IMG/VR virus record: IMGVR_UViG_3300045988_157791
Reading direction: 5' to 3' (one strand)
From: a virus
Taxonomy: Duplodnaviria > Heunggongvirae > Uroviricota > Caudoviricetes
Length of the DNA: 64,000 nucleotides
Shown: in pieces, positions 8,033-39,401 of the stretch
How positions within the stretch are numbered: position 1 is the stretch's first letter
How the letters are laid out: each line of letters begins with the position of its first letter
The notes under the pieces: generated by a model
What the model was told of the DNA's origin: nothing
What the model saw: only the letters and a program-made list of their open reading frames with translations
Database searches by the model: none
Translations under genes and position numbers: made by a program

Positions 8033-8087
8033 CCTGCTTCCGTATATATTTAATAAGTTACTTATTATTTATATATACAGAAGCAGG
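8033..8087. repeat. 55-bp extended palindrome, copy A
   Basis: CCTGCTTCCGTATATATTTAATAAGTTACTTATTATTTATATATACAGAAGCAGG; outer arms CCTGCTTC/GAAGCAGG around an AATAAGTTACTTATT core. Second copy at 39347-39401. Confidence 0.7.
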
Positions 8088-8198
8088 CATAACTTGTCGT
8101 CTTAGACGCCCAGAAGCTCTACACTTTGAGCCTGTTAAATTGATTAAAAACTTATGTGTAAAATAGAACGCATTAGTCAGTAGCAAAGAGATGCAATA

Positions 8199-8966
8199 AT
8201 GGACGATTTATCGGTATACGCGAGATCATTGGATAAGGCTAAATACTATGTTTACTGTCTCTATGATACAGAAGACAAGATGAAAAGACCGTTTTACATA
8301 GGAAAAGGCAAATCGACTCGTTGTCTCGATCACATCAAGTATCCCGATGACTCTCCCAAATCCATGCGGATCAAAGAACTTTTGGCTAATAAAAAATTAG
8401 GCATAGATATACTTCGTCATGGTATGGATGAAACCACAGCCAAACTTGTTGAGGCGACATGCATCGACCTTATGGGGGTCGGAGAGCTTACGAATAAGGT
8501 ACGAGGAAGTGGTTCCATGATGGGCAGAATATCACTGGACGCCTACCATCACTTAGTGCTGCAAGAGGAAACTGAAATTGCTCCTGAGCACGCCGGTCTT
8601 GCCTTCCTGCTAAACAGCACCTACAAGTCAGGAATGTCCGCTCTGGCATTATATGAAGCTACGCGTGGCGTATGGGCAAAGGTTCCAAGAGACGAGAATC
8701 TCAAATATGCCTACGCTACATATGGTGGGCTGATAATGGAAGTTTATCAGATTGAATGCTGGGTCAAAGCCGGTTCTCAGCAGTACTTTACAAGGGATAT
8801 AGCTCTTGGCCCCGACACAAAACGTTATGAATTTGTTGGCAGAATAGCCGATGAGCATATTAGAAAACTGTATGTAGGCAAATTAATCAAGAAGCCACCA
8901 AGCTACGGTAGCCCTTTTGTGAAGGTTGGGGTGGTTAGGACTGAACATAGTGTTAGCGCGGCATAA
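8199..8966 (+). CDS. GIY-YIG nuclease domain protein, free-standing homing-endonuclease-like
   Basis: N-terminal YYVYCLYD...RPFYIGKGKSTR...H matches the GIY-YIG signature; only plus-strand gene in a minus-strand block. Confidence 0.65.
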   Translation: MDDLSVYARSLDKAKYYVYCLYDTEDKMKRPFYIGKGKSTRCLDHIKYPDDSPKSMRIKELLANKKLGIDILRHGMDETTAKLVEATCIDLMGVGELTNKVRGSGSMMGRISLDAYHHLVLQEETEIAPEHAGLAFLLNSTYKSGMSALALYEATRGVWAKVPRDENLKYAYATYGGLIMEVYQIECWVKAGSQQYFTRDIALGPDTKRYEFVGRIADEHIRKLYVGKLIKKPPSYGSPFVKVGVVRTEHSVSAA

Positions 8967-8983
8967 AGCTGACACTGTAGTTA

Positions 8984-9012
8984 TGCATTGGCGCAATGTA
9001 CGCGCCAATGCA
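8984..9012. terminator. hairpin between convergent genes, likely bidirectional terminator
   Basis: GCATTGGCGC-AATGTA-GCGCCAATGC stem-loop followed by a T-rich tract. Confidence 0.5.
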
Positions 9013-9018
9013 TGATTT

Positions 9019-9378
9019 TTAACCTTTCTTCATCAACTCTCGTTTGATTTCATCGGTACGCATCGTGACATCGGCAGCGGTGATCGCCTCATTCAATTTC
9101 ACGATGTCCTCGATTTCCTGCGGTGACTTCTCTGCCAGATGGAAAATGGCTGCTCGAATCACGTCAGAACGAGTGAACTTCTCGAAGCGAGGGATGAACT
9201 TCATCATCTCCAGCAGTTCGAAGTATTCGTCCTCCAGTGACATTGTGCGGCTTTTAATTTTCTCTTTGCCACGAGTCGGGCGTCCCTGTGGTCTGACTGG
9301 TTGGCGCAAAGGAGTTGTGTTCTTAGCCGGTGCATCAGGCTCTTTGCGCTTTGCTAGGTCACCCATTTTCATGGACAT
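9019..9378 (-). CDS. ParG-like partition/centromere-binding protein (ribbon-helix-helix C-terminus)
   Basis: Directly downstream of the ParA-like gene (start/stop abut at 9378); basic disordered N-terminus plus RHH-like C-terminal segment. Confidence 0.5.
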   Translation of the reverse strand: MSMKMGDLAKRKEPDAPAKNTTPLRQPVRPQGRPTRGKEKIKSRTMSLEDEYFELLEMMKFIPRFEKFTRSDVIRAAIFHLAEKSPQEIEDIVKLNEAITAADVTMRTDEIKRELMKKG

Positions 9379-10046
9379 TATTCTTCTTCCTCCAGACTCA
9401 ACAGATAATCTACAAATTCTTCAAACTCGGCTTCCGCCTTTTTGTCGCGCTCGCTACCGGTCATTTCAAAGATAGAACGACCAGACTCTTCCGCATCATC
9501 ATAGACGTTGCGGTTATATAGATTGACTGGCGCAGACTCGATTCCAAACGTCTCAACAATCTCTTTAGCCGCCAGAATGCGAGACACTTGTGATGGCAAA
9601 GCCGGGCACTGGTTCATGACCGCGCGGACCTTCACTTTATCGTTTACATTGCGAACATTGTCGATAATAGGATCGATGTCACGTAAAGATTTCAAATCAC
9701 GACGCTTAGGACGCAGCGGGATAATGATAACGTCAGCCATCAGCATCGCTTGTCGCTGAATTTCGGAGTCGAAGCCACCAGCATCTACCACTACAAACTC
9801 AGCTCTACCCTGAAGCGATTTTAGGTGCTTAATGATGTCATCCTGAACGTATGCAAAAGGAATCAGCTCAAGGTCTTCGTTCTGTCGACGGTCTTCACAC
9901 CAGCTCGTTGTCGTGCGCTGAATATCTATATCGGTAATATAAACCTTCTTCTTCTTTTTGACTTTCAGGCAAACGGCAATTTGCTGGGCAACGGTGGATT
10001 TGCCAGGCCCGCCCTTTGTGCCGCCAACCACAAAGATCTTGGTCAT
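9378..10046 (-). CDS. ParA-family partition ATPase (small type Ib-like)
   Basis: Deviant Walker A GGTKGGPGKST near the N-terminus and VVVDAGG motif; 222 aa. Confidence 0.7.
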   Translation of the reverse strand: MTKIFVVGGTKGGPGKSTVAQQIAVCLKVKKKKKVYITDIDIQRTTTSWCEDRRQNEDLELIPFAYVQDDIIKHLKSLQGRAEFVVVDAGGFDSEIQRQAMLMADVIIIPLRPKRRDLKSLRDIDPIIDNVRNVNDKVKVRAVMNQCPALPSQVSRILAAKEIVETFGIESAPVNLYNRNVYDDAEESGRSIFEMTGSERDKKAEAEFEEFVDYLLSLEEEE

Positions 10047-10078
10047 TGGAGAGTTCCCTTTGCGTCTATTATTATCGT

Positions 10079-10112
10079 CTGAAACAACTTGTTTTCTTAT
10101 ATGTGATATAGC
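10079..10112. promoter_or_regulatory. palindromic operator GAAACAACTTGTTTTC upstream of the parA-like gene
   Basis: Near-perfect palindrome about 35 bp upstream of the ParA start; same motif recurs upstream of terS and several accessory genes. Confidence 0.5.
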
Positions 10113-10364
10113 CTAAATGCCTACGGCTACGGTGTAAAGGTTAAATGGTAGGTTGTGGTTAACAATTGGCAATCATAGCTTGTATTTGTCTGTTGAAAAA
10201 AGTAACAATGACCTCTATATTACAAGTACGGTGATATGCCGTACACAATTTGATAATGCACACGTAATGGGCTATAGCCTTTTAAAGTAATTTTTGAGTC
10301 GAAAACTCAGTTTGAACAGAGGAGATTGATGGCCTTCCTACATCACGGCCATCAGGAGGAATAC

Positions 10365-10634
10365 ATGTCAGCACTAAAAAAGCAGCGCATCGATTTGAGA
10401 TTAACCGATGACGATAAAAGCATCATCGAGGAAGCTGCCGCAATGTCTAACCAGAGCATTACTCAGTTTATGGTTAGCAGTGCATCTGAACGTGCCGTGA
10501 AAGTTATAGAGCAACACCGTAGACTAGTTCTGAATGAAGAATCCTGGAATCTGGTTATGGACGCTATAAGCAATCCTCCGGCACCGAACGACAAGCTGAA
10601 ACGAGCTGCTGATCGTCTGAAAAGCATGGAGTAG
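10365..10634 (+). CDS. DUF1778-type antitoxin (TacA/AtaR-like)
   Basis: MSALKKQRIDLRLTDDDKSIIEEAA... with AGGAGG ribosome-binding site before the ATG at 10365; 8 bp before the GNAT toxin gene. Confidence 0.75.
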   Translation: MSALKKQRIDLRLTDDDKSIIEEAAAMSNQSITQFMVSSASERAVKVIEQHRRLVLNEESWNLVMDAISNPPAPNDKLKRAADRLKSME

Positions 10635-10641
10635 TTTACTC

Positions 10642-11163
10642 GTGAGCAATACAACGATAGAGATTTTCTCTGGAGAGAAAGATTATGATCTAAACGGTTT
10701 TGATTGCGGCGAAGAGTCACTAAACGCCTTTTTAGCCAACCACTTAAAAAGGCAGCATGAGGGAAAAATTCTTCGTGCTTATGTGCTTTGCACTCAAGAA
10801 GAAAGGCCAAAAGTGTTAGGATATTACACTTTGTCAGGTAGTTGTTTTGAAAAGGAGTCCTTACCTTCAAGAAGCAAACAAAAGAAGGTTCCTTATCGGA
10901 ATGTTCCAAGTGTTACTTTGGGTAGGCTGGCTTTGGACAAGTCCCTTCAAGGTCAAGGATTTGGCTCAATGCTTGTAACACATGCAATGCGCGTTGTGTA
11001 CAATGCATCTCTTGCTGTAGGCATTCATGGACTTTTCGTTGAGGCGTTAAATGACAAAGCCAAGGCGTTTTATAAAAGTTTAGGCTTTATCCAGCTGGTT
11101 GGTAACAACGAGCGTTCTTTGTTCTATCCTACAAAATCTATCGAAAAATTGTTCGAAGAATAA
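10642..11163 (+). CDS. GNAT-family acetyltransferase toxin (TacT/AtaT-like)
   Basis: GNAT motif GQGFGSMLVTHAMR; classical DUF1778 plus GNAT toxin-antitoxin arrangement. Start codon is GTG. Confidence 0.75.
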   Translation: MSNTTIEIFSGEKDYDLNGFDCGEESLNAFLANHLKRQHEGKILRAYVLCTQEERPKVLGYYTLSGSCFEKESLPSRSKQKKVPYRNVPSVTLGRLALDKSLQGQGFGSMLVTHAMRVVYNASLAVGIHGLFVEALNDKAKAFYKSLGFIQLVGNNERSLFYPTKSIEKLFEE

Positions 11164-11331
11164 TGTGTTCCCCTCATTTGAGGGGAACTTCGACATCACC
11201 AACCACAAACCCTCTCTCCCATCGTATTGTGAAAAAGGATTTGGCGTTCGGTTTCTTCAGTCATTACATCATTATTGCTGATATAGATAGGCTCAGCCCC
11301 ATCGCAGAACAACACGCTGGCTGTTTGTGGT

Positions 11332-11583
11332 TTAATGACGCACCCACTTATCATACAACTCACGATGAACGGCAGAAGCATCTTTCTGACGTATTTTACT
11401 GCTCGTCTCATTCACCACTTTCACTGTGTTTTGAAGTCGTTTTCTGTCTTCCTGTTTTGCCTTCTCTTCCATTGCTCGTCGCGCCGCATTCCCGCCCATC
11501 GTGTAAGCGCCGACAAGAACGAAAAGAACGGCAGCCAGCGTAATCAAAGCAACTTTTAGCTTTGTCATCAGGCTGCCTAGCAT
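11332..11583 (-). CDS. small N-terminally anchored protein, possible i-spanin
   Basis: N-terminal helix LKVALITLAAVLFVLVGAY followed by a charged helical region; follows the endolysin candidate. Confidence 0.35.
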   Translation of the reverse strand: MLGSLMTKLKVALITLAAVLFVLVGAYTMGGNAARRAMEEKAKQEDRKRLQNTVKVVNETSSKIRQKDASAVHRELYDKWVRH

Positions 11584-11584
11584 A

Positions 11585-12304
11585 TTAGACCATCCCTTTC
11601 TGGTGTTTTCTTACCTGCGACCAGGCAATGAATCCTGCCACAACAATAGTGGCAATACCGAAGATGATGCGTACTGTATCCCCGCTAGAGATATGACCTT
11701 GTGCTTTATCCATAGCAGCGGAAACCTGCGGCATAACATCGGCCAGCTGCGCCAGACCAATACCTGCTGTAACAGTTGCGCCTGCAGTTTCTTTAGTTAC
11801 AGGAACAGCCTTCACGGTTTTCACCGGCTTAACAACGCCAGCTCGACGCAGACCTTCCTCAATAACTTCTGCCGCATACCAGGTGTTCAGCGTTTTTAGC
11901 GGGCCTCGGCCATTCTCGTGGCGAATGATTGCCTCAACCAAAGGTCGAAGGATGTCGTAATCATGCAGATCGATGATCATGTCTGCGGTTACACCAACGG
12001 CTTTAGACACCTCATTAATGTAGGCGTCAGTATTGTTTTCATTCGGCGGTGCCCAGCGTTCAATAACTTCACGAATGGTATCGATACTTGTGCCGTCTTT
12101 TGCGCGACGTTTATCGTGGTAGGTAATTAGAGTCACCGCCAGCGCACGAATCCCCCAAACAGGGTCTTTAAACGTGCAAAAGCGCGGTTCGTCTGGATTC
12201 GCAACCAGACCTTGCCACGGTGATCCTTTATCAAGATTACCGGGGTTATTATTACGAATGCCTCTCGGAGTCTTCATCCTTGATCTCCTGTTATTGCAGT
12301 CCAC
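11585..12304 (-). CDS. candidate endolysin / cell-wall-active protein with C-terminal membrane anchor
   Basis: RNNNPGNL motif and a C-terminal hydrophobic helix (IIFGIATIVVAGFIAWSQV); placement between two small membrane proteins. Function inferred from context only. Confidence 0.35.
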   Translation of the reverse strand: MDCNNRRSRMKTPRGIRNNNPGNLDKGSPWQGLVANPDEPRFCTFKDPVWGIRALAVTLITYHDKRRAKDGTSIDTIREVIERWAPPNENNTDAYINEVSKAVGVTADMIIDLHDYDILRPLVEAIIRHENGRGPLKTLNTWYAAEVIEEGLRRAGVVKPVKTVKAVPVTKETAGATVTAGIGLAQLADVMPQVSAAMDKAQGHISSGDTVRIIFGIATIVVAGFIAWSQVRKHQKGMV

Positions 12305-12626
12305 TTTTTACGCCATACGCGGCTAACCCCAAAAGCAGTGCGGTAATAATGAACGACGTTATTTTAGAAACAATGCCGCCAAAGAACCCACTTGAGATGG
12401 AATCTAACCGGTTAAGGAGTTTGTCCAGATTGGAGTGTTGAATACTATGTTGCGCCGGGGTCATATCACCAAAGTAGGTTTTCAGCTGATCATTGACCTC
12501 CTGGCCAATTTCTTCACGTAGCTCTTTACCTAATTTGCCAACAACCTCCCGAGCAACGATCGCGGCAATACGCTCAACTTGCTCTGTTGTAACGCCCGCC
12601 ATCTCGTTCGACATGTTTTCCTCCAT
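12291..12626 (-). CDS. small membrane protein, possible holin
   Basis: 111 aa with one C-terminal hydrophobic helix; first gene after the tail fibre; recurrent intergenic motif upstream. Confidence 0.35.
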   Translation of the reverse strand: MEENMSNEMAGVTTEQVERIAAIVAREVVGKLGKELREEIGQEVNDQLKTYFGDMTPAQHSIQHSNLDKLLNRLDSISSGFFGGIVSKITSFIITALLLGLAAYGVKSGLQ

Positions 12627-12816
12627 GAAAAGTCAAATCGGGATGGCGGATTTATATCACACTTCCCCTTTCAATTATAGGTATATACTTACCTATCTAT
12701 GCATATACCGTTTAACGGCTGTTCAAATTCGTATCTAGTAACTCACTAATATATCCCTATGATTGCGGCTGTGAGATCGCATTTTAAACCTCACAGCCAT
12801 ATAAATAATGTCTAAA

Positions 12817-15800
12817 TCAGTTACTTGTTGCCCCAACAGTACCTGCAAATTTCAGCCATTGACCTGACGGACTTCTATTACTACGGTAGTGATAAACGAG
12901 GATTGCGTTTGTAATCCCACCATAGTCAGCTTTGTGTGACGTCGTTAAACGAATTGTATAATCACCGTTAGGTAGATTAAAAACTTCGATTATAGATTCT
13001 GCTAATTCTACAGCACCAAATCCCGTTATATTGTTGATACTGCCAGCATTGAATCCCATAGCATCGCCAAAGCCAATCCAATAACTTTTGCTAAACGCCC
13101 CATTTGATTTTAGGTGGCTAATGAATGCGGACAAGCTCATGCCCATATCCCCACCTGAAACAGAGGAAGTTCGCACAGTCATACTTGGAAGAGCACTGCT
13201 CTTCACATAGGAACTTAGAAGGTTTGTTACCTCTGTTTTCGTGTAAGCATTAAGGTTAGCCGCAGTCAAAGTTATATCGGCAGAGCCATCAAACGCCACA
13301 CCAGCAATTTTCCTTGCTGTCTGCAATTTTGTGGCGGTTGCGGCATTACCAGTAGTGTTCTGATTACCAGTTGTATTCACACCAGGGATTGAATCCTTAG
13401 CGGTATATACCTGCGCCCACGCTGACCATGCCGCATCAGTGGTATCTCTTCGGGAGCGAATGAAAACCGGCGCATGTGCACCGCTCGTACCACTCCAGCC
13501 AATAAGCAACTCGCCCTCACCAGCAGCACTCGCACCTTTCATGTGCAATACGTTGCCATACGTGGTCGGGTAGCTATTGTTGTACGCCTCATACATTTGA
13601 ATGCCAGCAGTGCCTTGAGTAGAGCCGCTTAACGCCGTAACTCGGCCACGAGATACCAATGTATTAATATTGATATCGCCTGAACCATCAAACTTAACAC
13701 CATTGATGTTTCTCGCTGTTTGCAACTTCGTAGCTGTTGAAGCATTACCGTTCAAACTACCATTTACGCCACCAGTCACATTTAGTCCATTACCAATTGA
13801 TACAGCACCGCTGGTATTATTAATTGTAATAGGTCGCAAACCGTTCCATGAACCTAATGTGTCTCCTGATGCTGTTAGCATGAAATATGTGTTCGATCCA
13901 TCATTACGGATAAAGAACCCAAAGCTACCGTAAGCAATGCGGAAACCATTTGCATATTTTGAAATGATCTCGCCAGAAGATGTCAAACCTCCAGATAATG
14001 TACCACCGGTAAGAGGTAATGCACCGACATCAGAGGCTGTTGGTTTGTTTTTCGTGTTATATACTCTTCGCCATCCTGGAGAATAATCTGTGCCATTAAA
14101 TACATAGATAAACTCCGCATTAGTGAGAGCACCGGAAACACTTGTCGTTGTGGCCGTTGTTATGCGGATCGTATAATTATTTGAACTACTACCGTTATTA
14201 AATACTTCTATAACAGCTCCTGCCAATGGAATAACGCCACAACCAGTTTCACTATTTGGTATGGTTGCGCTATTGGCATAGGCCCACGCACATCGAGCAA
14301 TCCATGCCTTTGTGTTAAAGGCTCCATTATTTTGCAATAACGTCACTAACTGGGCTGTTGTTATTGCTCCGCCATTACTTCCTGTAGTTAACCAACCAGT
14401 AGGAGATGCTGGGCAACCTATATTTGCTGGTGACAAGGAAATATTTGCCGAACCGTCAAACGACACCCCATTAATAGTACGCGCAGTCTGCAACTTCGTA
14501 GCAGTAGCCGCATTACCTGTTGTATTCTGATTACCAGTCGTATTAACACCTGGCAAATTAATATTTGCAGTACCATCAAAGCTCACGCCGCCGATAGTTC
14601 TTGCCGTCTGTAGTTTTGTAGCAGTTGCGGCATTACCAGTGGTGTTCTGATTACCCGTAGTGTTTACACCTGGAAGATTAATATTGGCAGAACCGTCGAA
14701 ACCAACTCCACCGATAGTTCTTGCCGTCTGTAATTTCGTTGCTGTAGCAGCATTTCCTGAAAGACTTGAAATAAATGGATGTGAACAGTAATAACCTCGT
14801 CCATTTTTAAAGTCCAAAATTATCTGTGCATTCGTACTTTCTGATAAAGGATCAGTTGCCCCCCACTTATAAGTGGTTTGACCAACTGCATAATCAGCCG
14901 TTGGAACAATCACATTTAATCCTTCCTCAGCAAAAATCTGGATAGGGAATGCTCTTGTCTCAACGTAAAATACACTACACAAATCATCATCTTTTACGCT
15001 TGCGATAATCGAGTGTATAGATCGTTCAACGGTTGAATATATTGAGAAAAAACCAACAGCATATGAACCGCGATCAGACCAACCGCCCGGCATAACAAAA
15101 CCATTAAACTCACAATTATTCATAGCGTATCCGCCAGCTGAGGAATAAGTGGTGATAACCACTCGTGAGGCTAATTCATCTGTGCCACCACCAGTTCGGC
15201 GAAAGACTACAGGATACCACTTACCGCTTACTGCATTTGCAGGAGCAGAGAAAGTGTATTTTCGCATCCCCTTTTTCTTATCCACTTCACCTTTGCTGTA
15301 AACATTAATGTTATTCAGGAAGCGGCCCTTGTCGGGGATATCAGCACCATTCTGATCCTTCTGTAGTCGTTTTTCAGCATTATCATATGCGGTCTTAACT
15401 GCTTTTGGTGTCGCGGCTAAAGATTCACTGGTGCTGTCGACAGCACTGCTAAGTTTCACAACACCTTTGGTGGTAAGGCTTGCGTCTTCCATCGCAACTG
15501 CACCGGCAATCTCTTCAGCACGATCAGCGGCAGCTTCCGCACGGGTCGCAGCGGATTCAGCAGCAGTTTTGCTCTGAGATGCAGCTGTCGCACTGCCTGC
15601 CGCCTCTGTTGCCTTCGTGGATGCCGTTGAAGCACTGCTCTTCGCTGCTGATGCCTGCTTGGTCGCCTCATCTTTTGAAGCGGATGCTGAGGTGGCTGAT
15701 GCAGACGCAGAACTTGCAGATTCAGCAGCTGCCGCCTTAGAGGAAGCAGCATTGTCTTCTGAGGTCTTTGCATTTGTTTCAGAGGTTTTTGCTGCCGATG

Positions 15801-16854: not shown

Positions 16855-16947
16855 GTTGAATATGCTCCTTGATTTGGTGGGCTATCCTTGCCCACCATAA
16901 AGTAAGTACCTACTTATTTTTACCGATGTAAATATTTTTTTCTACTA

Positions 16948-19900
16948 TCACAGAAGGCCAATTCTCACTCGGAGGACGTTGTTATCGTCATAAACGTCAA
17001 TCCGCTGACCATTTATGACCAATCGCCCATTGCCGCCGCTATTACCGTTAATCTCAAGCGTTCCATTTTTGCCGAACCGCCATCCAGATCTACCGCTAAC
17101 AAAATTGGTAGATTGCAGATCGCCTACTTTTGCATTGGTGATTGTGCCATCCTTGATATACGCACCATTCATATAGGCGATACTGTTTTCGATAACAAAT
17201 GGCGTGGTGATCTTCCCGTTAACAGAGTTGACCAAACCAAATCTGTCCGCCTGAACCAAAAACTGAGATAGCCCAGTGGTGTCAATACCAAGCGCAATAC
17301 CGGCAACATACTTCTGCCCTCCGCTCGTTGAAGTCTCCATTTTCAACGTCCACGCGGTTGATACTTTTTTGTTGGTATCAGCAATAGCTGTTGCCTGCTG
17401 TTGAATTGTCGCGGTATTTCCATCCACCTCTGCTTTCAGAGTATCGATTCGCCCACTCAGAGCATTATCTGCCTGCGTTCTCGCTGTCGTTTCAGTTGTG
17501 ACCGCCGCAGAAATGTTGGCTGCTGTTTGAGACTCTAAGTTTGTGATTTGAGTCGCCAATGCAGCATCTTGCTCTGTACGCGTTTTCGTTTCGGTTGCTA
17601 CAGCCGCTTTAATATCCTCTTTGTATTGAGAGGTCAGCTTGGTGATCTGAGACGACAACGCCGAGTCAGCATCAGTTCGAGCCTGCGTTTCAACTGCAAC
17701 GGCCGCACTAATATCTTTCGCTGTCTGTGCTTTTAAACTTGAAACCTCTTTTGTTAAAGCGGTATCACCATCTGCACGAGCCGTTGTTTCTCTGGCAAGA
17801 GACGCCTCGAGATCATTAGCTTTTGCTGTAAGAGACGTAATCTGGGTAGACAATGCACTATCGGCATCAGTCCTTGCTTTTGTCTCTACAGCAACCGCTG
17901 CGGCAATATCAGTTCCGGTTTGTGCTCGCAGGCTGTTAATTTCTCGTGAGAGCGCCTGGTCAGCACTTGCTCTGGCCTCCTGCTCCTGAGTGATGGCCGC
18001 GGATATATCACCGTCAACCTTTGACTGAAGCTGGTTTATTTGTTTGGCTAACGCAGAGTCCCCGCTTGCTCGGGCCTCCTGCTCACTACGTATTGCAGCA
18101 GAAATATCATCATCAACCTTTGCCTGAAGTTGGGTGATCTGTCTTGCCAGAGCCGAATCTTCCGTTGCTCGGGCTTCTTGCTCTTCCTTAATAGCTGCGA
18201 CGATATCGTTGCTTACTTTCGACTCAAGCTGAGTGATCTGTGTCGTCAGAGCTTCATCGGCAGATGTACGAGCCTCCTGCTCTGTACTAATCGCCGCGCT
18301 GATATCTCCTTCAAACTTAGATTGCAGCTGAGTGACACGCTTTGCCAACGCTTCATCGCCATCGGCACGAGCGGTGGACTCTTCCAGAATACTGGCCTTA
18401 ATGTCTTCGCCAATTTCTACGCGAATTTCCTCAACCTTCGTGGCCATTGCAGACATATCATCAGCAAAGGTTTTCTGTGTTGTTGCGATCTTCGCGTTAT
18501 TGACCATCTGCTTGTGCTGGTCTTCATCTTGACGAAGAGCCAGGTCAATATTTGTTTTGGCTAACGCCTCAATGTTCGTAGTCAGTTCTGCACTGGCACG
18601 ATCGACCTCTGCAACCGTCTTTTTCATTTCTTCAACGGCAGCGGAGCTTTCCTCTACCGTTGACTGCAACACTTCCAGTTGTTTAGCGTTTGCAGCATCG
18701 CCTTCAACACGAGCCTCGCTTTCCTTAGCAATAAGAGCCGCCGCTTCATCTCTTGCAGCCTTTATTGCCTCGACTGTATTAGCGAGAGCTTTATCGTGTT
18801 CAGATACGGTGTTTTCGATTTCAACAATTGCAGCATCAGTAGCATCAATTTTTTCAAACGCTTCATTGACCTTGTCGATCGTTGCCGAAACCTCACCTTT
18901 AAGCTCGGTTTGTGCGTTCTCCAAAGCATCGCTACGCTCGTTGAATTTTATTTCAAAATCCGCGAGGTTATCGCTGAACTGCTTATCTAATTCAGCTATA
19001 TCTTCCTTAACGTCGTTTACCGCCCCCTCCAAAGATTCGACGCTCTGGTTGATATGCTCATTTAACTCGTCAACTGCTTCTTGAGAGGCTTTGCTGTTGA
19101 TGTCCTCAAGCAGAGCCTGACCAAGCTCGGAAGATGTAATTTTGCCAGTCAGGAACGACAGTACATCGCGAGTTGTCGCCTCTGTACCCAAGTTTGAGTT
19201 CGGAGGACTTAACATACCTCGCTTGTTCGATGCTCGAACCCAGTAATACCACGTTTCGCTATCCCCAAGACCAGCATGTGTAAAGGTGGTGCTTGCAGAC
19301 TCTGCGATCAGTTTCGCCGTATCCAGATTGTTGGTCTGGGATGCGTAAACATTAATGTGATCAAGGTCTACCGAATCTGGATTAACCCAATTCAGTATCA
19401 CATTACGATAGTCTCCAACGGCCGTTAATGACGTTGGGGAATCCGGCGGTGTCATTGTGCCCAACACCTGATAAACGGTACTGATAATCTCTGTTTTTTT
19501 ACCGTTGAATGAAACCGCATACAGCTGGAAGTCGTAGCGTCCATTCTCCGCGACATTAACGATTTCGTATTGCTCTTCGGTTACACGCGCCGATTGCCAG
19601 TTCGATACATTGTTTTCATCAGAACGTCGCCAACTGATCCAATACTCTGGAGATTTCCCTTCCCATGTTGCAGTCAGTTTTACTGACAGGTTGCCCGGGC
19701 TTGAGAGATAAGTCCCTTCAGTGATTTGCAGATTAGATGGCTTGGAGTAAGTCGGGTCCAATACCGTCGTATTTTGCGGGATAAGCGTTGCACCATTGTC
19801 GATCGCCTCATATTTAGACGGATTGTTCTCAACAGCGGTGATGTCAAAGCTACCCGGCGTTTCCCCCTGCGCGATGTTAACGATGCGAACGCGCATAGGT

Positions 19901-30313: not shown

Positions 30314-30351
30314 TCATTGCGCTAATAGTAAGTATATACTTACCAATTGAG

Positions 30352-32458: not shown

Positions 32459-32892
32459 TACTCACCGCCTTGTGCTTTCAGGATGCCTTCAATCATCTCG
32501 ACAATTCCTTTCGCTTTGACACCAACCTGATTACCAATCACACGTAGACCGGCAATGCCTTCATTGTCTGCAATTGACTCCAACTCTTCTCGTGTGAAAG
32601 TCTGGATCTGTTTGGCCGGTTCATCTGGTGTCCCACGTTTCATTGGCACAATGTCAGGTGCTGCTGGCTCGGTAATCAGGTCTGCGGTCAACTCGCCACG
32701 ATCACTGTATGCGGCAGACGGAGAAACATTTTTGCCCTCGACTGTTGATGCTCGCATTGAGGCACAAATCCTTTGCTGATCGATAAAAGGCAACTCCGCT
32801 ACGGACACCCCGTTCTCGAACTGAACGCCGCACAACATTCCCGAATAACCGGAAAATTGCGGTTCTAATAAAACAATTTTTGCTGGTTTCAT
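32458..32892 (-). CDS. hypothetical head protein (144 aa)
   Basis: Follows the Ig-like decoration gene in the capsid block. Confidence 0.4.
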   Translation of the reverse strand: MKPAKIVLLEPQFSGYSGMLCGVQFENGVSVAELPFIDQQRICASMRASTVEGKNVSPSAAYSDRGELTADLITEPAAPDIVPMKRGTPDEPAKQIQTFTREELESIADNEGIAGLRVIGNQVGVKAKGIVEMIEGILKAQGGE

Positions 32893-32936
32893 AACGCATT
32901 CTCTCTACATGGGCGGCTTTCGCCGCCCAATATTGA

Positions 32937-33857: not shown

Positions 33858-33930
33858 TTCTCGCTCCTACAAAAAGGGTGGGCGTATAGCCCACCCTTTA
33901 ACATAGATAACTACCTATCTACCACACTGA

Positions 33931-34806: not shown

Positions 34807-34831
34807 CTATCAATTCCCTTTGATTTAGATG

Positions 34832-35719
34832 TTACTTAAGTCCAATTTTCCCCAGACCGGAGGCCAACTTATCCATAGTCGACTTATTCTTCGGTTGGGA
34901 TATTGTGTAGGTCGATTTGGAATGTGAGCCTACACCCTGCTTGGCTTCGCTACGCATCAATGCGTCAGCTTCCGGATCTGCCCGCACAATGCGTTCAATC
35001 GCGGATTCAAACGGCAACGGCTTACCTTCACCGTCAACCAGAACAGCTCGTTCTTTGTGACCTGCCGGTTTGTCATAACCCACTACGCTACCGTCTTCAC
35101 CCACTTCAAAATGAGAACCGTAGATCACGCGGGCTTTTGCCGGGGTCATCAGAACTTTGTCACGTAGGAAGAGAGAGTTACTGAAGGAAGCGCCCACGGT
35201 CATCTCGACTAATTGAGATTTCAGTGATGCGTTTTCACTTTCCAGTGCTGCATAACGTTCGTCACGCTGTGCCAGCTCTGCCTGGTGTGCTTCGATCATC
35301 TGTTTTTTAACAGCATCGAACTCACCACGACGCTCCAGTTCAGCTTGCTCCGCCTCACGACGTGCGTTTTCTGCGGCCTGTTCAGCTTCTAAAAGCTGGC
35401 GAGCACGAGCCGGATCGATATCACCGTACTGAGCAAGCTGATCGGCCAATGTGCGCTCTTTCTCTTTGCGCTTCATGTTCTCCTTCAGCAGTTCAGCACC
35501 AGCTTTCTTGGTTTTACGAAGTTCGGCCAGTAACTCTTCCTGAGTCATGCCAGCGTATTCGTCATCGCCCTTCGGCTGCTCTTTTTGTTCACCCTGTTTG
35601 TCAGGATCTTGTGTACTCTGCTCATTATCAGCAGCTACACCGCCAGCGCCTCCACGCTCATGCGCTTCAGCGACATCCATCAGACCACGACGGGCCAAAA
35701 GCATTTGCCACAGATTCAT
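34832..35719 (-). CDS. scaffolding protein
   Basis: Highly charged Glu/Ala/Arg/Lys-rich helical protein between portal and capsid genes. Confidence 0.55.
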   Translation of the reverse strand: MNLWQMLLARRGLMDVAEAHERGGAGGVAADNEQSTQDPDKQGEQKEQPKGDDEYAGMTQEELLAELRKTKKAGAELLKENMKRKEKERTLADQLAQYGDIDPARARQLLEAEQAAENARREAEQAELERRGEFDAVKKQMIEAHQAELAQRDERYAALESENASLKSQLVEMTVGASFSNSLFLRDKVLMTPAKARVIYGSHFEVGEDGSVVGYDKPAGHKERAVLVDGEGKPLPFESAIERIVRADPEADALMRSEAKQGVGSHSKSTYTISQPKNKSTMDKLASGLGKIGLK

Positions 35720-35740
35720 AAAAATTCCTTTTGTTACTTA

Positions 35741-37315
35741 TCACTCGTTCTCTTGAGTAGATGAGTCCCCATTCCCTCGGGGTTGATCTTGCCCGCTTTC
35801 TTGGGCTGCACCACGATCATAAGTAAGTACTGACTTATTTTCAAGGGTATTTAGATCATTTTTTGGAGGAAAATTCAAGAGATCTTTATCAAATTCCTTT
35901 TTCATCGCCTCAGTAATGTTCGGGAAAATCTTCTCAATAAGCATTTCCATCTGGTGACGACGTACAGAGTCCGGTGCCTGAAGTAATGACAGTTTCTCGG
36001 CAACAGAAAATTCATCAGTAAGGCCACGAATATCGAAACTTTCTGGATATGCAATTAAAGAGTGGTCTTCGTCCAGATCTACCCCCATCCATTTCGCAAC
36101 CAGTAGCATGATTTGGCGTTCAGCCCTTTCCAGACGCTCTGCTTTTGTGACAAGCAAGCTATTTACACGCTGGAAGTCATACATTTTTGCGGCACCAGAT
36201 GAATTATCGATTCCCTGTGCGTTGTCCTGCTTCGTTCGCTCACCAGCTACACCAACTGAATGGTAGATTTCGTTAATCACCGTCTTAATCGTAGTGATGA
36301 TCATCTGAGCTTGTTTCGGGTCTGGTGACAGATAAAACGGCTGGTTTCCACCTTCAGAATCGTAGGTGAAGACTCGCTTTGTGCCCATTTCAAGCACTTT
36401 AGTGTGGTTTTCATCACCAGGTAAAAGCGACTGTACCGGTATAGCCAACTGGCTAAATGTCTGATCCTGAATAATGGCATCAAGGTTTGACAGATAGTTT
36501 GCAACCGCACGATCAAGATAAGCGATATCATCGATCAACGATGGGCTGAAATACGGTGATTCACTTTCTCCAATACAATCAACAGGAAACACAGGAACTA
36601 CGCCGAGATTATGCTCACCGCTATCCTCTAAAATAACTTTTGCCTGACGGCGACCTGCTCCACCAGCGCCCTTCTTCACTTCCTCACGGAACAGATACCA
36701 CTCGTTTTGTGTCCACAGACGATAACGTTGGTATTCCTGACCTGTAGAAGTAAAAGGATCTGCGTCATCACGAGCGACTTCCACAATTAACGCCCACAAC
36801 ATATTCCCGTCGTCGTCCCATGCCACATCCAGCATTTGCTGAGGTGAAATCCAGTAGGCGTAGGCGCGAGCATCTTTCTTTTTCTCGTCAGCTACTGACT
36901 CAACATCACCACTCATCGTGCTATCGACAACAACCCATATGCGACCGTAAATAGACGACTGCAAATCAATAGCGGCCATAAATGAGTCAATAGAGGCATT
37001 CTGGCGAGTCGCACGTTTCCAGAAATTGCGGATCTGCTCTGGTGCCTCTTCGATATTTCTATGAATGTCTTCTTTAAAGAGATATTTGTTGATGAGGTTT
37101 ACCACCTCACGAGTGTGGTTGAAGCGATAAGCACGTTCAACTCGCTCCTTAAACTCCTGATCTCCCTCTTTAAAGTAACGAAAGATATTGTCTGTAAACC
37201 AACCACGCCCGCCAGCGTAAGTGCTGGCGAGGAAGTCCCAATGTTCTTTTTTCTTTTCGTATTCCGGGTGGCGTCGCGCCACCAGATCCTTAATTTGTTT
37301 GTCGTTCAATTCCAT
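35741..37315 (-). CDS. portal protein
   Basis: 524 aa, immediately downstream of TerL; acidic C-terminal tail. Confidence 0.65.
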   Translation of the reverse strand: MELNDKQIKDLVARRHPEYEKKKEHWDFLASTYAGGRGWFTDNIFRYFKEGDQEFKERVERAYRFNHTREVVNLINKYLFKEDIHRNIEEAPEQIRNFWKRATRQNASIDSFMAAIDLQSSIYGRIWVVVDSTMSGDVESVADEKKKDARAYAYWISPQQMLDVAWDDDGNMLWALIVEVARDDADPFTSTGQEYQRYRLWTQNEWYLFREEVKKGAGGAGRRQAKVILEDSGEHNLGVVPVFPVDCIGESESPYFSPSLIDDIAYLDRAVANYLSNLDAIIQDQTFSQLAIPVQSLLPGDENHTKVLEMGTKRVFTYDSEGGNQPFYLSPDPKQAQMIITTIKTVINEIYHSVGVAGERTKQDNAQGIDNSSGAAKMYDFQRVNSLLVTKAERLERAERQIMLLVAKWMGVDLDEDHSLIAYPESFDIRGLTDEFSVAEKLSLLQAPDSVRRHQMEMLIEKIFPNITEAMKKEFDKDLLNFPPKNDLNTLENKSVLTYDRGAAQESGQDQPRGNGDSSTQENE

Positions 37316-37341
37316 TTGAATAACCTTAGATAATTACTTAC

Positions 37342-38598
37342 CTATCGAGAACCACCAAGAATAACACGGTTTTTGACTGGATACCTACGATGTACTGGAT
37401 AGCCCAATGCGTCTGCACTATGCTCAATGCCACCTGTCTTATCCATATCTCGTGTTCCAGGCTTGTAGATGACTTTTTCCAGTGAATCAATCAAATGCTT
37501 GCACTTCGGATCGATATACAGCCGGATATCTCCAGATGCGGACATCAGCATTCGGTTAACAGCATTAACACGATCCGCAATTGGCGGGTGCTTTTTCGAA
37601 TAATCGACACGTAAGAATCCCTTCTCTTTGAATATGTCTACGTCAGACTCCCCACGAGCATGTTGGCGATAAGCACCTGCCGGATCTGGAAATACCGTTA
37701 CCTGTGATTTCCAGCGCCAGAAGCGTCTCTCAAGCTCATCACAAACTTCTGCCGTGTTAGAGGAAAAGAGCACCAATTCATCAATTGCCCATAGCTCACC
37801 ATTTGGCTGAGGTTGCAAAATTACTGAAGACATCGGGTCAATGTTGAAGTCCTGCCCTACCCATATAGGCAACCGAGGGTTGAACTGAAGCGGTTTTACA
37901 TGCACGTTACGATCGAACGGGTAGTAAACGCGCCCGGACATGTTCTCAAAGCTGGCCAGGTACTCCTGAGCGAACGATTTGGGGTCCATATCGTTCTTAG
38001 CAGCTTCAATTTCCGCCGTAGGTACAAACGGAGAATCGGCAGTTACAAACTGCCAGCTCTTCCACTGTCCCTTTCTTTGCAGCTCTACGTTCTGGCCTAT
38101 AGTCCACAGTTTGTGAAATTCCGAGAAGCCTTTTGGCGTACCAATGATCAGTGCACCGCCGCGTGTCGATGAAAGAGTAGGTCGTAACACCTTGTACCAG
38201 GTGTCAGCCTTCATATCCTGAAATTCATCAAGCACTACAAAATGCAACGCTACGCCGCGCAGAGTGTCAGGCTTATCAGCACCTTTGAGGGCGATCTCCG
38301 AACCGTTCTTCAACACGATTGTCATCGTGGTGTCGTTCTTTTTCCTAACCCACTTACGAGGCAGAACTTCCTGTAGATCGTCCCACAAAATCTGGCGAGC
38401 CATCTGGTAAGTAGGAGCGACATACCAGACCCTTTGCTTTTTTTCCTTTGCCGCCGCACGAATAATAGTGGAGATCGACAACCGGGATTTTCCCCAGCGT
38501 CGACCAGCACAAACAACTTTAAATCGATGCGGAGACTGGAAGACTTTCATCTGTCCAGAATGCAGTTGCACAAGACTGAGCGAGGACGGGATTGCCAT
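37342..38598 (-). CDS. terminase large subunit
   Basis: Walker A VVCAGRRWGKS near the N-terminus, size 418 aa, 4-nt overlap with the upstream small subunit gene. Confidence 0.8.
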   Translation of the reverse strand: MAIPSSLSLVQLHSGQMKVFQSPHRFKVVCAGRRWGKSRLSISTIIRAAAKEKKQRVWYVAPTYQMARQILWDDLQEVLPRKWVRKKNDTTMTIVLKNGSEIALKGADKPDTLRGVALHFVVLDEFQDMKADTWYKVLRPTLSSTRGGALIIGTPKGFSEFHKLWTIGQNVELQRKGQWKSWQFVTADSPFVPTAEIEAAKNDMDPKSFAQEYLASFENMSGRVYYPFDRNVHVKPLQFNPRLPIWVGQDFNIDPMSSVILQPQPNGELWAIDELVLFSSNTAEVCDELERRFWRWKSQVTVFPDPAGAYRQHARGESDVDIFKEKGFLRVDYSKKHPPIADRVNAVNRMLMSASGDIRLYIDPKCKHLIDSLEKVIYKPGTRDMDKTGGIEHSADALGYPVHRRYPVKNRVILGGSR

Positions 38599-39230
38599 TA
38601 TTCGTCCTCCCCTTCACTTCCAACATCTGTCGCATCAAATTCGCTTAGAGCTTCTTCTTCCAACGTCTCAAGCAATTCGTCATCGATGATTTCAGGCTCG
38701 TCGTCTTCCTGACGTAATTTCGCCACCTGGGAAGGCGTAAGCTCACCAAATACCAGGTTCGGAATTTCTTCCTCGTCATTTTCCGCATGATCCATGCCCA
38801 ATGCTTTGGACGAAACTTCAAAGCATTTTGCAAGGGTATTACTGGCTCTCTGTAAGCTCTTGAGAGAATCCTCAATCGCCCCTAAAGGCTTACCCTCACG
38901 TTTGGCCGTAGTGACTTCGACCATCACCATCTGCCCCAACGCATACGCCCAGCCGTCATAACGTGTACGACGTTCTTCTATCTTTTCCGCACGGGCTTTA
39001 GCGCGAAGCTCTGCGTCAGATTTAAGAGACTCACGAACCATCTTCCCAACAGAGTCCGCGCCTTTCTCTAATCCTCGCTTTTTGAAATGTCTGGAGAGTG
39101 TTTCACGACGAATGCCGTACTCTTCCTCCAGCTTTGAGAGTGTATATTCGCCTGACGTCCATTTGGCTTCAGCTTCGGCCCACTCCGCTGGTGTCAGGCG
39201 AGTTTTTACCTCGTCTTTTTCGACCGTCAT
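38598..39230 (-). CDS. terminase small subunit (HTH-containing)
   Basis: N-terminal helix-turn-helix-like LSKLEEEYGIRRETLSRHF, very acidic C-terminus, coupled to TerL. Confidence 0.55.
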   Translation of the reverse strand: MTVEKDEVKTRLTPAEWAEAEAKWTSGEYTLSKLEEEYGIRRETLSRHFKKRGLEKGADSVGKMVRESLKSDAELRAKARAEKIEERRTRYDGWAYALGQMVMVEVTTAKREGKPLGAIEDSLKSLQRASNTLAKCFEVSSKALGMDHAENDEEEIPNLVFGELTPSQVAKLRQEDDEPEIIDDELLETLEEEALSEFDATDVGSEGEDE

Positions 39231-39269
39231 AGATCCCTCTAAAACACACAGAGCGCGTCCATGCGCTCT

Positions 39270-39313
39270 AAAACAACTTGTTTACTGCATCTGCTAACCA
39301 ACTTGTTTTCTGG
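39270..39313. promoter_or_regulatory. two AACAACTTGTTT operator-like half-palindromes upstream of terS
   Basis: AAAACAACTTGTTTA and CCAACTTGTTTTCTGG, same family as the parA and accessory-gene operators; adjacent hairpin AGAGCGC-GTCCAT-GCGCTCT at 39251-39271. Confidence 0.45.
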
Positions 39314-39346
39314 GGTGTTTAATTAGGTCTGGCATGTCTTACGAAG

Positions 39347-39401
39347 CCTGCTTCCGTATATATTTAATAAGTTACTTATTATTTATATATACAGATGCAG
39401 G
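39347..39401. repeat. 55-bp extended palindrome, copy B
   Basis: CCTGCTTCCGTATATATTTAATAAGTTACTTATTATTTATATATACAGATGCAGG; one mismatch to copy A. Confidence 0.7.

What the first reader, a model, noticed from the sequence alone, without database searches (positions are those of the whole stretch)
8033..39401. Two copies of a 55-bp extended palindrome 31 kb apart
Near-identical elements at 8033-8087 and 39347-39401 (one mismatch) form a long perfect-arm hairpin around an AATAAGTTACTTATT core. One lies in the divergent region before the GIY-YIG gene, the other just upstream of the terminase small subunit where a cos or pac site would be expected. Candidates: packaging or recombination site, operator for a dimeric regulator, or a miniature mobile palindrome.
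Basis: seen in the sequence. Interest (0 to 1): 0.45.

Follow-up and report, generated by a model that had tools for sequence, protein, structure and literature searches.

The report
Repeated palindromic terminator-like hairpin, phage-plasmid
The two near-identical 55-bp palindromes are real and belong to a three-copy, family-specific intergenic element of SSU5-like phage-plasmids that most likely acts as a hairpin transcription terminator/insulator at the borders of the big gene modules (and as a recombination hot spot), rather than as a DNA-packaging site.

Summary
In detail: 8033-8087 and 39347-39401 differ at one base, with none expected by chance. The arms are not perfect: one mismatch plus a 2-nt length asymmetry. 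The window is an E. coli SSU5/pHCM2-type phage-plasmid. The 55-mer is the core of a ~105-bp element with invariant outer TCTGG/CCAGA boxes. It occurs three times per genome at syntenic intergenic sites: before terS, before the helicase/primase operon, and after a Dam-like methylase (outside the window). All copies have the same orientation relative to the genes. It is found in about 800 enterobacterial plasmids and essentially never on E. coli chromosomes.

Evidence favours a sense-strand terminator/insulator hairpin. Each copy starts ~25 nt after a co-directional stop codon and ends ~110 nt before the next gene. A T-run follows the stem at sites 1 and 3 in every genus. Distant relatives that lack the palindrome carry ordinary hairpin+T-run terminators at the same positions. 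Copy 2 itself lacks a T-run; a second hairpin with one sits just before terS.

Homology breaks at the palindrome edge, arms are shuffled between sites, and E. coli copy 1 carries a site-2-type core, so the copies recombine. A pac role for copy 2 is not excluded, because the SSU5 record ends inside it, but three copies and assembly breaks at the same palindrome weaken that. No experiment exists.

The parts
8033..8087 (-). Palindrome copy 1 (site 1), 55-nt core. Sense strand = minus strand: CCTGCTTCTGTATATATAAATAATAAGTAACTTATTAAATATATACGGAAGCAGG
   Evidence: folds
8004..8117 (-). Extended element 1 (~105-114 bp), including the outer inverted boxes TTCTGG (8010-8015) and CCAGAA (8110-8115)
   Evidence: nhmmer profile hit E 1.6e-24; 131-nt fold pairs the outer boxes; alignment
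8027..8032 (-). T-run (UCUUUU on the sense strand) directly 3' of hairpin 1
   Evidence: sequence; T-run conserved at site 1 in all genera
39347..39401 (-). Palindrome copy 2 (site 2), 55-nt core, with one extra A.A mismatch in the GC clamp
   Evidence: folds
39321..39428 (-). Extended element 2, with outer boxes GGTCTGG (39326-39332) and CCCAGACC (39416-39423). No T-run follows the stem (sense CUUCGU).
   Evidence: nhmmer E 9.1e-30; fold; flank statistics
39249..39270 (-). Second, ordinary terminator-like hairpin (TAGAGCGCATGGACGCGCTCTG + TGTGTTTT) between palindrome 2 and the terS ribosome-binding site
39271..39308 (.). Two copies of the 13-bp palindrome AAACAAnTTGTTT (39271-39283 and 39296-39308), a probable operator, between palindrome 2 and terS
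   Evidence: 12 copies in the window versus 0.53 expected; families D4/D5
39426..39692 (-). 88-aa MarR-like winged-helix gene. Its stop codon lies 25 nt upstream (sense) of palindrome 2.
   Evidence: (phrog_900)
38598..39230 (-). terS-like DNA-binding gene, first gene of the ~28-kb late operon. Its start lies 117 nt downstream (sense) of palindrome 2.
   Evidence: phrog_867
7176..7925 (-). 249-aa gene (annotated ATG at 7916), first gene of the helicase/primase/ligase/DnaE replication operon. Its start lies 108-117 nt downstream (sense) of palindrome 1.
   Evidence: phrog_2500
7961..7989 (-). Candidate sigma70-like promoter TTCCAA-17-TATCAT downstream of palindrome 1. Seen by eye only; it fails the scan tool's 4/6 rule. 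The -10 block is conserved in SSU5 and Morganella-type relatives.
   Evidence: sequences; no tool support
8199..8966 (+). LEM-3-like GIY-YIG gene in the variable segment that abuts the palindrome edge. It is absent from SSU5.

Best explanation
The 55-bp palindromes are the cores of a repeated, lineage-specific module-boundary element of SSU5/pHCM2-type phage-plasmids. When transcribed on the gene (minus) strand, each forms a long hairpin with a GC clamp and an AT-rich top. The hairpin would stop or punctuate transcription coming from the upstream unit (the par/accessory genes, or the ParB-like/ABC/winged-helix operon). This would insulate the promoter-proximal region of the next large lytic operon: the replication operon at site 1 and the terS late operon at site 2.

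At sites 1 and 3 the hairpin is followed by a U-run and should terminate on its own. At site 2 in this lineage the U-run is missing, and a second, ordinary terminator hairpin sits 77 nt further on. Copy 2 is therefore at most a pause, processing or leaky signal.

Because the copies are near-identical repeats, they also act as sites of homologous exchange and gene conversion. This explains the mosaic junction at copy 1 and the near-identity of copies 1 and 2 in E. coli.

Shown: anatomy, copy number, synteny, orientation, T-run pattern, positional analogues, and recombination signatures. Inferred: that the element is transcribed and that it terminates.
For: 1. Three syntenic intergenic copies, all in the same orientation relative to the genes, occur in E. 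coli, Salmonella SSU5 and Klebsiella pJN2-26. Y. pestis pMT, which has lost the helicase region, keeps only site 2 (maps).
2. The geometry is constant. The core starts 23-27 nt after the stop of a co-directional gene (site 2 here; sites 1-3 in SSU5/pJN2-26) and ends ~110-120 nt before the next start.
3. A sense-strand T-run follows the stem at sites 1 and 3 in every lineage, even though the flank sequences differ (TCTTTT, TTTTTTT, TCATTTT, CTTTTT, CTGTTTT). The mean is 5.4-5.5 T in 9 nt with a run of ~4.2, against 3.0-4.0 T and a run of ~2 on the antisense side and at site 2.
4. Distant relatives lack the palindrome but have ordinary terminators at the same places. In Morganella-type loci, GGGAGCA..TGCTCCC+UUUCUUU (dG -17.1) and GGAGCA..UGCUCC+UUUCUUUUU (dG -12.7) lie ~110 nt upstream of the 249-aa homologue. 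In K. michiganensis-type loci a remnant left arm (CCTGATTCTGTATGT) is followed by AGAGCACGGCTCT+T8, which the scan tool flags.
5. T-runs are distributed in a complementary way. In the E. coli/SSU5 lineage palindrome 2 lacks the T-run and the downstream hairpin has it. In the L240/L241 lineage it is the reverse.
6. Compensatory changes keep pairing while the sequence differs between sites of one genome: pJN2-26 s1 T5-A51, s3 T8-A48; L168 G6-C50 + T9-A47.
7. There are recombination signatures. Homology to SSU5 and CP054387 stops at 8087-8090. Two unrelated left flanks abut the core. The arm alleles CCTGCTTCCG and CCTGCGTCTG occur in hybrid combinations. E. coli s1 is 1 edit from E. coli s2 but 5 and 12 edits from its orthologues.
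Against: Copy 2, one of the two copies in the finding, has no U-run, so by itself it fails the definition of an intrinsic terminator.

The stem (17+7 bp, 55-57 nt) is far longer than usual terminators, and this replicon uses short GC hairpins elsewhere (D16/D18).

Clamp positions 1-4, 7 and 10 and the outer TCTGG/CCAGA boxes are invariant in 40 unique cores. That looks like sequence-specific protein recognition, not mere pairing.

Mismatches are common and stable; for example T9.G47 occurs in 19 of 40 cores.

There is no consistent sense-strand folding advantage: 19 cores fold better in sense and 19 in antisense, and site-3 variants fold better antisense.

In this window the gene immediately upstream of copy 1 is on the other strand.

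No transcript data were available, and the promoter scans found no promoters near either copy.
Confidence: 0.45

Rival explanations
1. DNA-level nucleoprotein site. The invariant CCTGC/GCAGG clamps and outer TCTGG/CCAGA boxes would be bound by a phage-plasmid protein. Candidates encoded next to copy 2 are the MarR-like 88-aa protein, the two ParB-N-domain proteins and TerS. The AT-rich centre would be bent, melted or extruded as a cruciform. The three sites would then serve as regulatory or silencing loading sites at the heads of lytic modules (in the manner of KorB-OB or ParB-parS) or as lytic replication origins.
For: Four box positions are invariant across 10 sites in 4 genomes and 40 unique cores, while neighbouring bases vary. 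There is no strand bias in folding energy. DNA-binding genes lie adjacent: a winged-helix protein, ParB_N x2 and the terS-like 'DNA binding' PHROG. Copy 1 sits next to the helicase/primase operon. The centre shares TAAGT/ACTTA half-sites with a 7-copy motif family.
Against: The spacing between outer boxes and core varies (20 vs 27 nt on the left, 21 vs 24 on the right). That is awkward for a fixed protein assembly. CCAGA/TCTGG is a common 5-mer with no special clustering. Clamp positions 5, 6, 8 and 9 differ between sites of one genome. Distant relatives replace the element with plain terminators rather than with another symmetric box array. The plasmid replicon (RepB) is far from all three sites.
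Confidence: 0.2
2. Copy 2 is the packaging initiation site (pac, or the boundary of terminal repeats). Terminase would bind the flanking boxes and cut in or near the palindrome. The other copies would be inactive relatives.
For: Copy 2 lies 117 nt upstream of terS. The SSU5 virion-derived record ends ...ACTTATTA | AATATATACGG inside the palindrome. The layout of a central site flanked by repeated boxes resembles P1 and SPP1 pac sites (established knowledge).
Against: All three copies keep the full architecture, including the outer boxes. The Cyrano record ends are not independent: it is plasmid pLF82 re-annotated, and I infer it was oriented like SSU5. Loci stop inside the same palindrome at site 1 in draft assemblies (L026, L094), so an assembly break explains the SSU5 ends equally well. 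Other phage records are linearised elsewhere. The nearest characterised TerL relatives are headful/DTR types, so a lambda-like cos site is unlikely.
Confidence: 0.12
3. RNase III-type processing or mRNA-stabilising hairpin. The ~24-bp (up to ~40-bp imperfect) double-stranded RNA stem in read-through transcripts would be cleaved. This would separate module mRNAs and leave protective 3' hairpins, as at phage T7 R-sites.
For: The predicted stem exceeds two helical turns, with internal loops. The lower stem is formed by the outer boxes. The location is intergenic in co-directional gene arrays, in one orientation. This would explain copy 2, which has no U-run.
Against: There is no sense-strand folding bias overall. 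The U-runs at sites 1 and 3 are not needed for processing. Nothing can be tested in silico.
Confidence: 0.13
4. Selfish or neutral repeat: a miniature mobile palindrome, or the footprint of homing-endonuclease activity, without function for the phage-plasmid.
For: It is palindromic and repeated, lies next to a GIY-YIG gene, and sits at a mosaic junction.
Against: There are only three copies, at fixed syntenic positions across genera. It is absent from host chromosomes. It is conserved more strongly than the flanking intergenic DNA. The GIY-YIG gene is missing in most relatives that still have the element.
Confidence: 0.04

Closest known systems
Intrinsic (Rho-independent) terminators at phage operon boundaries
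   Same: GC-clamped stem-loop on the sense strand just after a stop codon. A U-run follows at sites 1 and 3. Ordinary terminators occupy the same positions in distant relatives.
   Different: The stem is about three times the usual length, with an AT-rich upper part. The sequence is near-identical between three sites and across genera. Outer boxes are invariant. Copy 2 lacks the U-run.
PeSL cassettes (promoter-early stem-loops) of T4-type phages, which are repeated intergenic regulatory cassettes that mediate modular shuffling (recalled from Arbiol, Comeau & Krisch 2010; not re-read here)
   Same: A repeated intergenic stem-loop next to promoter-proximal regions. The copies sit at the borders of variable gene blocks and appear to act as homologous-recombination sites.
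   Different: There are only three copies, at major module borders. The palindrome is much longer. No promoter inside the element was shown here. The phage family is unrelated.
Phage T7 RNase III R-sites
   Same: A set of similar long imperfect hairpins in one orientation between genes of polycistronic units.
   Different: Cleavage is untested. U-runs are present at two sites. There are far fewer copies.
pac sites of P1 and SPP1
   Same: Copy 2 lies just upstream of terS. A central region is flanked by symmetric repeated boxes.
   Different: There are three copies with the same architecture. No end-mapping data exist. There are no Dam (GATC) clusters as in P1.
KorB-OB operators of RK2 and the dispersed centromere sites of phage-plasmid N15
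   Same: Palindromic sites dispersed over a plasmid near operon heads, in a replicon that encodes ParB-family proteins.
   Different: Those sites are 13-16 bp and sequence-invariant. Here the element is 55-105 bp with compensatory variation, and no binding is known.

Membership tests
Intrinsic terminator | Stable GC-rich-based RNA stem-loop on the transcribed strand | tested here: met
   Sense RNA dG is -30.2 (site 1) and -29.4 (site 2), z -8.7 and -9.0. The clamp is CCUGCUUC/GAAGCAGG.
Intrinsic terminator | U-run (about 4-8 U) immediately 3' of the stem | tested here: inconclusive
   Copy 1: UCUUUUAA (5 U in 8), met. Copy 2: CUUCGUAA, not met. Across lineages, sites 1 and 3 average 5.4-5.5 T in 9 nt and site 2 averages 3.1.
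Intrinsic terminator | Lies at the 3' end of a co-directional transcription unit | tested here: met
   Copy 2 starts 25 nt after the stop of the 88-aa gene. Site 1 in SSU5/pJN2-26 lies right after the stop of the preceding co-directional gene (23 nt in SSU5), and site 3 lies ~27 nt after the methylase stop. In this window, copy 1 has the co-directional parAB operon further upstream, with an antisense GIY-YIG gene in between.
Intrinsic terminator | Causes transcript 3' ends or reduced read-through | not testable with these tools
   No transcriptome data were accessible.
cos/pac packaging site | Adjacent to the terminase genes | tested here: inconclusive
   Copy 2 yes (117 nt from terS). Copy 1 and site 3 no.
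cos/pac packaging site | Unique recognition site per genome | tested here: not met
   There are three copies with the same architecture per genome.
cos/pac packaging site | Virion DNA ends or read starts map to the site | not testable with these tools
   The only hint is that the SSU5 record ends inside copy 2. Cyrano is not independent. Loci from draft assemblies also break inside the palindrome.
Operator of a dimeric regulator | Short two-fold symmetric sequence kept identical at all sites and overlapping a promoter | tested here: not met
   The element is 55-105 bp. Clamp positions differ between sites of one genome through compensatory pairs. No promoter-like site overlaps it.
MITE/REP/ERIC-type mobile palindrome | Many dispersed copies, including in host chromosomes, with presence/absence polymorphism | tested here: not met
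   There are 1012 places on plasmids versus 2 on chromosomes, in 260 of 5426 E. coli genomes. Positions are fixed and syntenic.
Protelomerase target (telRL of N15-type phage-plasmids) | Perfect even-centred palindrome, a protelomerase gene and a linear replicon | tested here: not met
   The palindrome is imperfect with an odd centre. No gene is annotated as a protelomerase in the 110-kb relative. The records are circular.
Known RNA family (Rfam 15) | Match at or above a family's gathering score | tested here: not met
   Only chance miRNA-hairpin matches of 16-21 bits against gathering scores of 70-211.

The most novel reading that the evidence does not exclude
The element would be not merely a terminator but a dedicated cis-acting DNA site of SSU5-type phage-plasmids. 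It would be a cruciform-prone AT-rich palindrome framed by four invariant CTG boxes and recognised by one of the adjacent DNA-binding proteins (the ParB-N-domain pair, the MarR-like protein or TerS). It would mark the heads of the three lytic modules for co-ordinated silencing in the plasmid state, or for packaging or replication initiation. It would also drive module exchange between phage-plasmids by recombination within the palindrome.
Probability: 0.22. Interest if true: 0.6.

Novelty: new variant of a known kind. Interest (0 to 1): 0.35.

Why it matters
SSU5/pHCM2/pMT1-type phage-plasmids are common in clinical Enterobacteriaceae and carry resistance genes. Their transcription programme, packaging site and lytic origin are uncharacterised. 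A conserved three-copy element that marks the borders of the replication, late and early/metabolic modules gives concrete handles for mapping that programme and for engineering these replicons. It may also explain where modules are swapped between lineages. If it is only a terminator, the finding is useful annotation but not surprising.

Tried and rejected
- Strand bias as evidence for RNA function. The two copies in the window fold better on the minus strand. Over 40 unique cores the split is 19 sense versus 19 antisense, so I dropped this argument.
- Iteron idea for the CCAGA repeats. The 5-mer is too common and shows no special clustering at the sites.
- Literature. Searches for SSU5/pHCM2 with palindrome, cohesive ends, termini, packaging or inverted repeat found nothing relevant. 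The SSU5 genome announcement is not held.
- Record ends as physical ends. The Cyrano record comes from plasmid pLF82. The PhiR41_1 and vB_KpnS_p4727 records are linearised arbitrarily.
- The genome-contig scan with an AT-rich central anchor returned mostly chance hits in AT-rich genomes. Only Kluyvera and Y. pestis, and perhaps Arsenophonus, looked genuine.
- Sigma70 promoter scans around both copies found nothing.
- A weak fourth profile hit lies inside the CobT-like gene of SSU5 (E 0.47) and pMT (E 0.006). I did not follow it up; it is probably AT-rich noise.


Full report
**Observation.** The 55-mer CCTGCTTCCGTATATATTTAATAAGTTACTTATTATTTATATATACAGAAGCAGG occurs at 8033-8087. It occurs again, with one substitution, at 39347-39401 on the same strand. 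No match was seen in 100 dinucleotide shuffles (repeat family D8). It is a strong but imperfect hairpin. On the + strand there is a C.A mismatch and a 3-nt/1-nt bulge, and copy 2 has one more mismatch. With up to 3 mismatches the reverse strand does not match the pattern. RNA folds of 81 nt give -23.4 to -30.2 kcal/mol (z -4.8 to -9.0). DNA folds of the 55-mer give -10 to -15.2 kcal/mol.

**What the window is.** Both regions are 98-99.7% identical to E. coli plasmids and phages of the SSU5/pHCM2 phage-plasmid group (CMS-2020a, PhiR41_1, Cyrano, p4_0.2). They are ~80-87% identical to Salmonella phage SSU5 and Klebsiella relatives. Almost all genes run on the window's minus strand.
- Copy 2 lies between an 88-aa gene (stop 25 nt upstream in the sense direction) and the terS-like first gene of the ~28-kb late operon (start 117 nt downstream).
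- Copy 1 lies 108-117 nt upstream of a 249-aa gene that heads the helicase/primase/ligase/DnaE operon. On its other side is a GIY-YIG gene on the opposite strand, followed by the co-directional parA/small-partner operon.

**Distribution.** A 101-nt query around copy 1 hits 800 PLSDB plasmids: Klebsiella 313, Escherichia 237, Enterobacter 92, Yersinia 62, Salmonella 49, Citrobacter 25 and others. It also hits 12 phage records. In 5426 complete E. coli genomes the element is found in 260. There are 1012 places on plasmids and 2 on a chromosome. It is therefore specific to this phage-plasmid group and is not a host repeat. Rfam has no family for it. The paper library holds nothing about it.

**Anatomy.** Alignment of IMG/VR loci and complete relatives shows that the 55-mer is the core of a ~105-bp element. 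An outer inverted pair (G)TCTGG(G) ... (C)CCAGA(C) lies 20-27 nt outside each end of the core, and it pairs in 131-nt folds. A profile search of four complete replicons finds three copies per genome at syntenic intergenic positions:
- site 2, before terS;
- site 1, before the 249-aa/helicase operon;
- site 3, just after a Dam-like methyltransferase gene (p4_0.2 94295-94401, outside this window).

For all three sites the best-scoring orientation is the same relative to gene direction. Y. pestis pMT, which lacks the helicase region, keeps only site 2. The geometry is constant: the core starts ~23-27 nt after a co-directional stop codon and ends ~110-120 nt before the next start.

**Variation.** I compared 40 unique cores.
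- Clamp positions 1-4, 7 and 10 never vary.
- Positions 5, 6, 8 and 9 vary. They show fully compensated pairs (T5-A51, G6-C50, T8-A48, T9-A47). They also show frequent, apparently stable mismatches; T9.G47 occurs in 19 cores.
- Compensated states differ between sites of a single genome. In pJN2-26, s1 has T5-A51, s3 has T8-A48, and s2 has neither. This argues for pairing rather than a fixed operator sequence.
- The better minus-strand fold of the two window copies is not general: 19 cores fold better in sense and 19 in antisense. I therefore do not use strand bias as evidence.

**Recombination.** Several observations point to exchange at the palindromes.
- Homology of SSU5 and of CP054387 to the window stops at 8087-8090, the palindrome edge.
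- Two unrelated left flanks abut the same core in E. coli relatives.
- The two arm alleles CCTGCTTCCG and CCTGCGTCTG occur in pure and in hybrid combinations at different sites.
- The E. coli site-1 core is 1 edit from E. coli site 2 and 3 edits from other site-2 cores. It is 5 and 12 edits from its orthologues in SSU5 and pJN2-26.

In other lineages the within-genome copies differ by 5-14 edits.

**Function: why I favour a terminator/insulator hairpin.**
- First, the position and single orientation fit the 3' ends of transcription units inside long co-directional arrays.
- Second, sites 1 and 3 are followed on the sense strand by a T-run in every lineage, although the flank sequences themselves differ. 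The mean is 5.4-5.5 T in 9 nt with a longest run of ~4.2. The antisense sides and site 2 have 3.0-4.0 T and a run of ~2.
- Third, more distant relatives that lack the palindrome have ordinary intrinsic terminators in the same places. In Morganella-type loci (249-aa homologue 47-49% identical), hairpins of -17.1 and -12.7 kcal/mol followed by UUUCUUU(UU) lie ~110 nt upstream of the gene. In K. michiganensis-type loci (TerS 59-61% identical), a remnant of the left arm is followed by AGAGCACGGCTCT+T8 or by a clamp hairpin+T6. Xenorhabdus and Moellerella loci have ~100-nt AT-rich hairpins with GC clamps.
- Fourth, the T-runs are distributed in a complementary way in the 88-aa/terS spacer. In the E. 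coli/SSU5 lineage the palindrome has none, but a second hairpin (39270->39249, + UGUGUUUU) does. In the L240/L241 lineage it is the reverse.
- Downstream of copy 1 there is a conserved -10-like block (TTCCAA-17-TATCAT, 7989-7961, seen by eye only). It is followed by a TAAGTAAGTAAC palindrome. The layout thus looks like terminator, then promoter/operator, then operon, so the element would act as an insulator in front of a lytic operon.
- The constitutively needed par operon lies upstream of site 1 on the same strand. That gives a biological reason for a strong stop there.

**What this does not explain.** Copy 2 fails the U-run criterion. The stem is unusually long. The invariance of the CCTGC/GCAGG and TCTGG/CCAGA boxes looks like protein recognition. 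Adjacent genes encode plausible binders: the 88-aa protein is a MarR-like winged helix (AF2 pLDDT 82; Foldseek hits to MepR, MarR and ZitR), there are two ParB_N proteins, and there is a terS-like DNA-binding protein. I therefore keep a DNA-level nucleoprotein site (0.20) and an RNase III/processing hairpin (0.13) as live rivals.

**Packaging.** The SSU5 GenBank record ends ...ACTTATTA and begins AATATATACGG..., that is, inside copy 2. This is the only direct hint for a pac or end site. Several points weigh against it.
- Cyrano's equivalent ends are not independent, because that record is plasmid pLF82 re-annotated.
- Loci from draft assemblies also stop inside the palindrome at site 1 (L026, L094). 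This suggests that assemblers break there.
- Other phage records are cut elsewhere.
- All three copies share the architecture.
- TerL is of the Terminase_6N/6C type. Its nearest characterised relatives, at ~24-27% identity, are Jersey-, Kaguna- and T5-like phages and cluster-B mycobacteriophages. From my own knowledge these are headful or terminal-repeat packagers, which argues against a lambda-like cos site.

I give packaging 0.12.

**Other rejected readings.**
- A mobile palindrome is rejected on copy number, synteny and absence from chromosomes.
- A protelomerase target is rejected because the palindrome is imperfect and odd-centred, the replicons are circular, and no gene is annotated as a protelomerase.

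**Novelty and score.** I found no description of this element. The most likely function is ordinary, a terminator/insulator. The form is unusual: long, strongly conserved, three copies, boxed, and recombinogenic. I rate it a new variant of a known kind, with interest 0.35. All functional statements are inferences from sequence and comparison. The decisive data would be virion read-end mapping, 3'-end transcript mapping and reporter assays.

Noticed in passing
window 7152, 10082, 39271, 39296, 49316, 49801, 51454, 51938, 53134, 54747, 54798, 61666: The 13-bp palindrome AAACAAnTTGTTT (extended consensus ...TTTTCT) occurs 12 times against 0.53 expected. Copies include one directly upstream of parA, one between the 249-aa gene and the helicase gene, and two between palindrome 2 and terS. 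It is probably the operator of a global dimeric regulator: a repressor, or the small ParA partner as with the dispersed centromeres of N15.
   Followed up: partly
window 975-992, 4496-4513, 16903-16916, 30329-30342, 42618-42635, 51049-51062; imperfect copies at 7927-7949, 12673-12696, 35815-35838, 37322-37345: A second palindrome family, TAAGTA-N0-6-TACTTA, occurs 7 times against 0.04 expected. Where checked, copies lie 10-35 nt upstream of start codons of operon-first genes or in gene junctions. The centre of the 55-bp palindrome has the same half-sites (TAAGT-T-ACTTA).
   Followed up: partly
window 39249-39270 (-): An ordinary terminator-like hairpin plus T-run lies directly in front of the terS ribosome-binding site, downstream of the operator-like motifs. 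The late operon may need read-through or antitermination.
   Followed up: partly
outside the window: p4_0.2 NZ_CP023851.1 94295-94401; SSU5 78279-78397; pJN2-26 15249-15350: A third, more diverged copy of the element lies just after the Dam-like N6-adenine methyltransferase gene. It is followed by a T-run and several CCAGA(C/A) repeats.
   Followed up: yes
SSU5 43633-43729 and Y. pestis pMT (L118) 3397-3494: Weak profile hits (E 0.47 and 0.006) to the element lie inside the CobT-like 'porphyrin biosynthesis' gene in two genomes. They could be a decayed fourth copy or AT-rich noise.
   Followed up: no
window 8199-8966 (+): A LEM-3-like GIY-YIG nuclease gene sits in the variable segment that begins exactly at the palindrome edge. 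It is absent from SSU5 and from many E. coli relatives, which have an unrelated flank there.
   Followed up: partly
[not shown]
   Followed up: partly
window 13274-14757 and 17935-18330: Coding tandem or dispersed repeats occur in the tail-fibre region: 5 x 77 nt and 4 x 99 nt.
   Followed up: no
window 47909-47943/48181-48215 and 49464-49502/49935-49973: There are two pairs of duplicated short GC-rich terminator-like hairpins, 272 and 471 nt apart, in the accessory region.
   Followed up: no
window 10326-11163 (+); relative p4_0.2 77922-81213: A DUF1778 + GNAT toxin-antitoxin pair lies next to parA. The closely related plasmid is annotated with host-like metG and apbC, plus dfrA51, nrdAB, thyA, dnaE and recA.
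   Followed up: no
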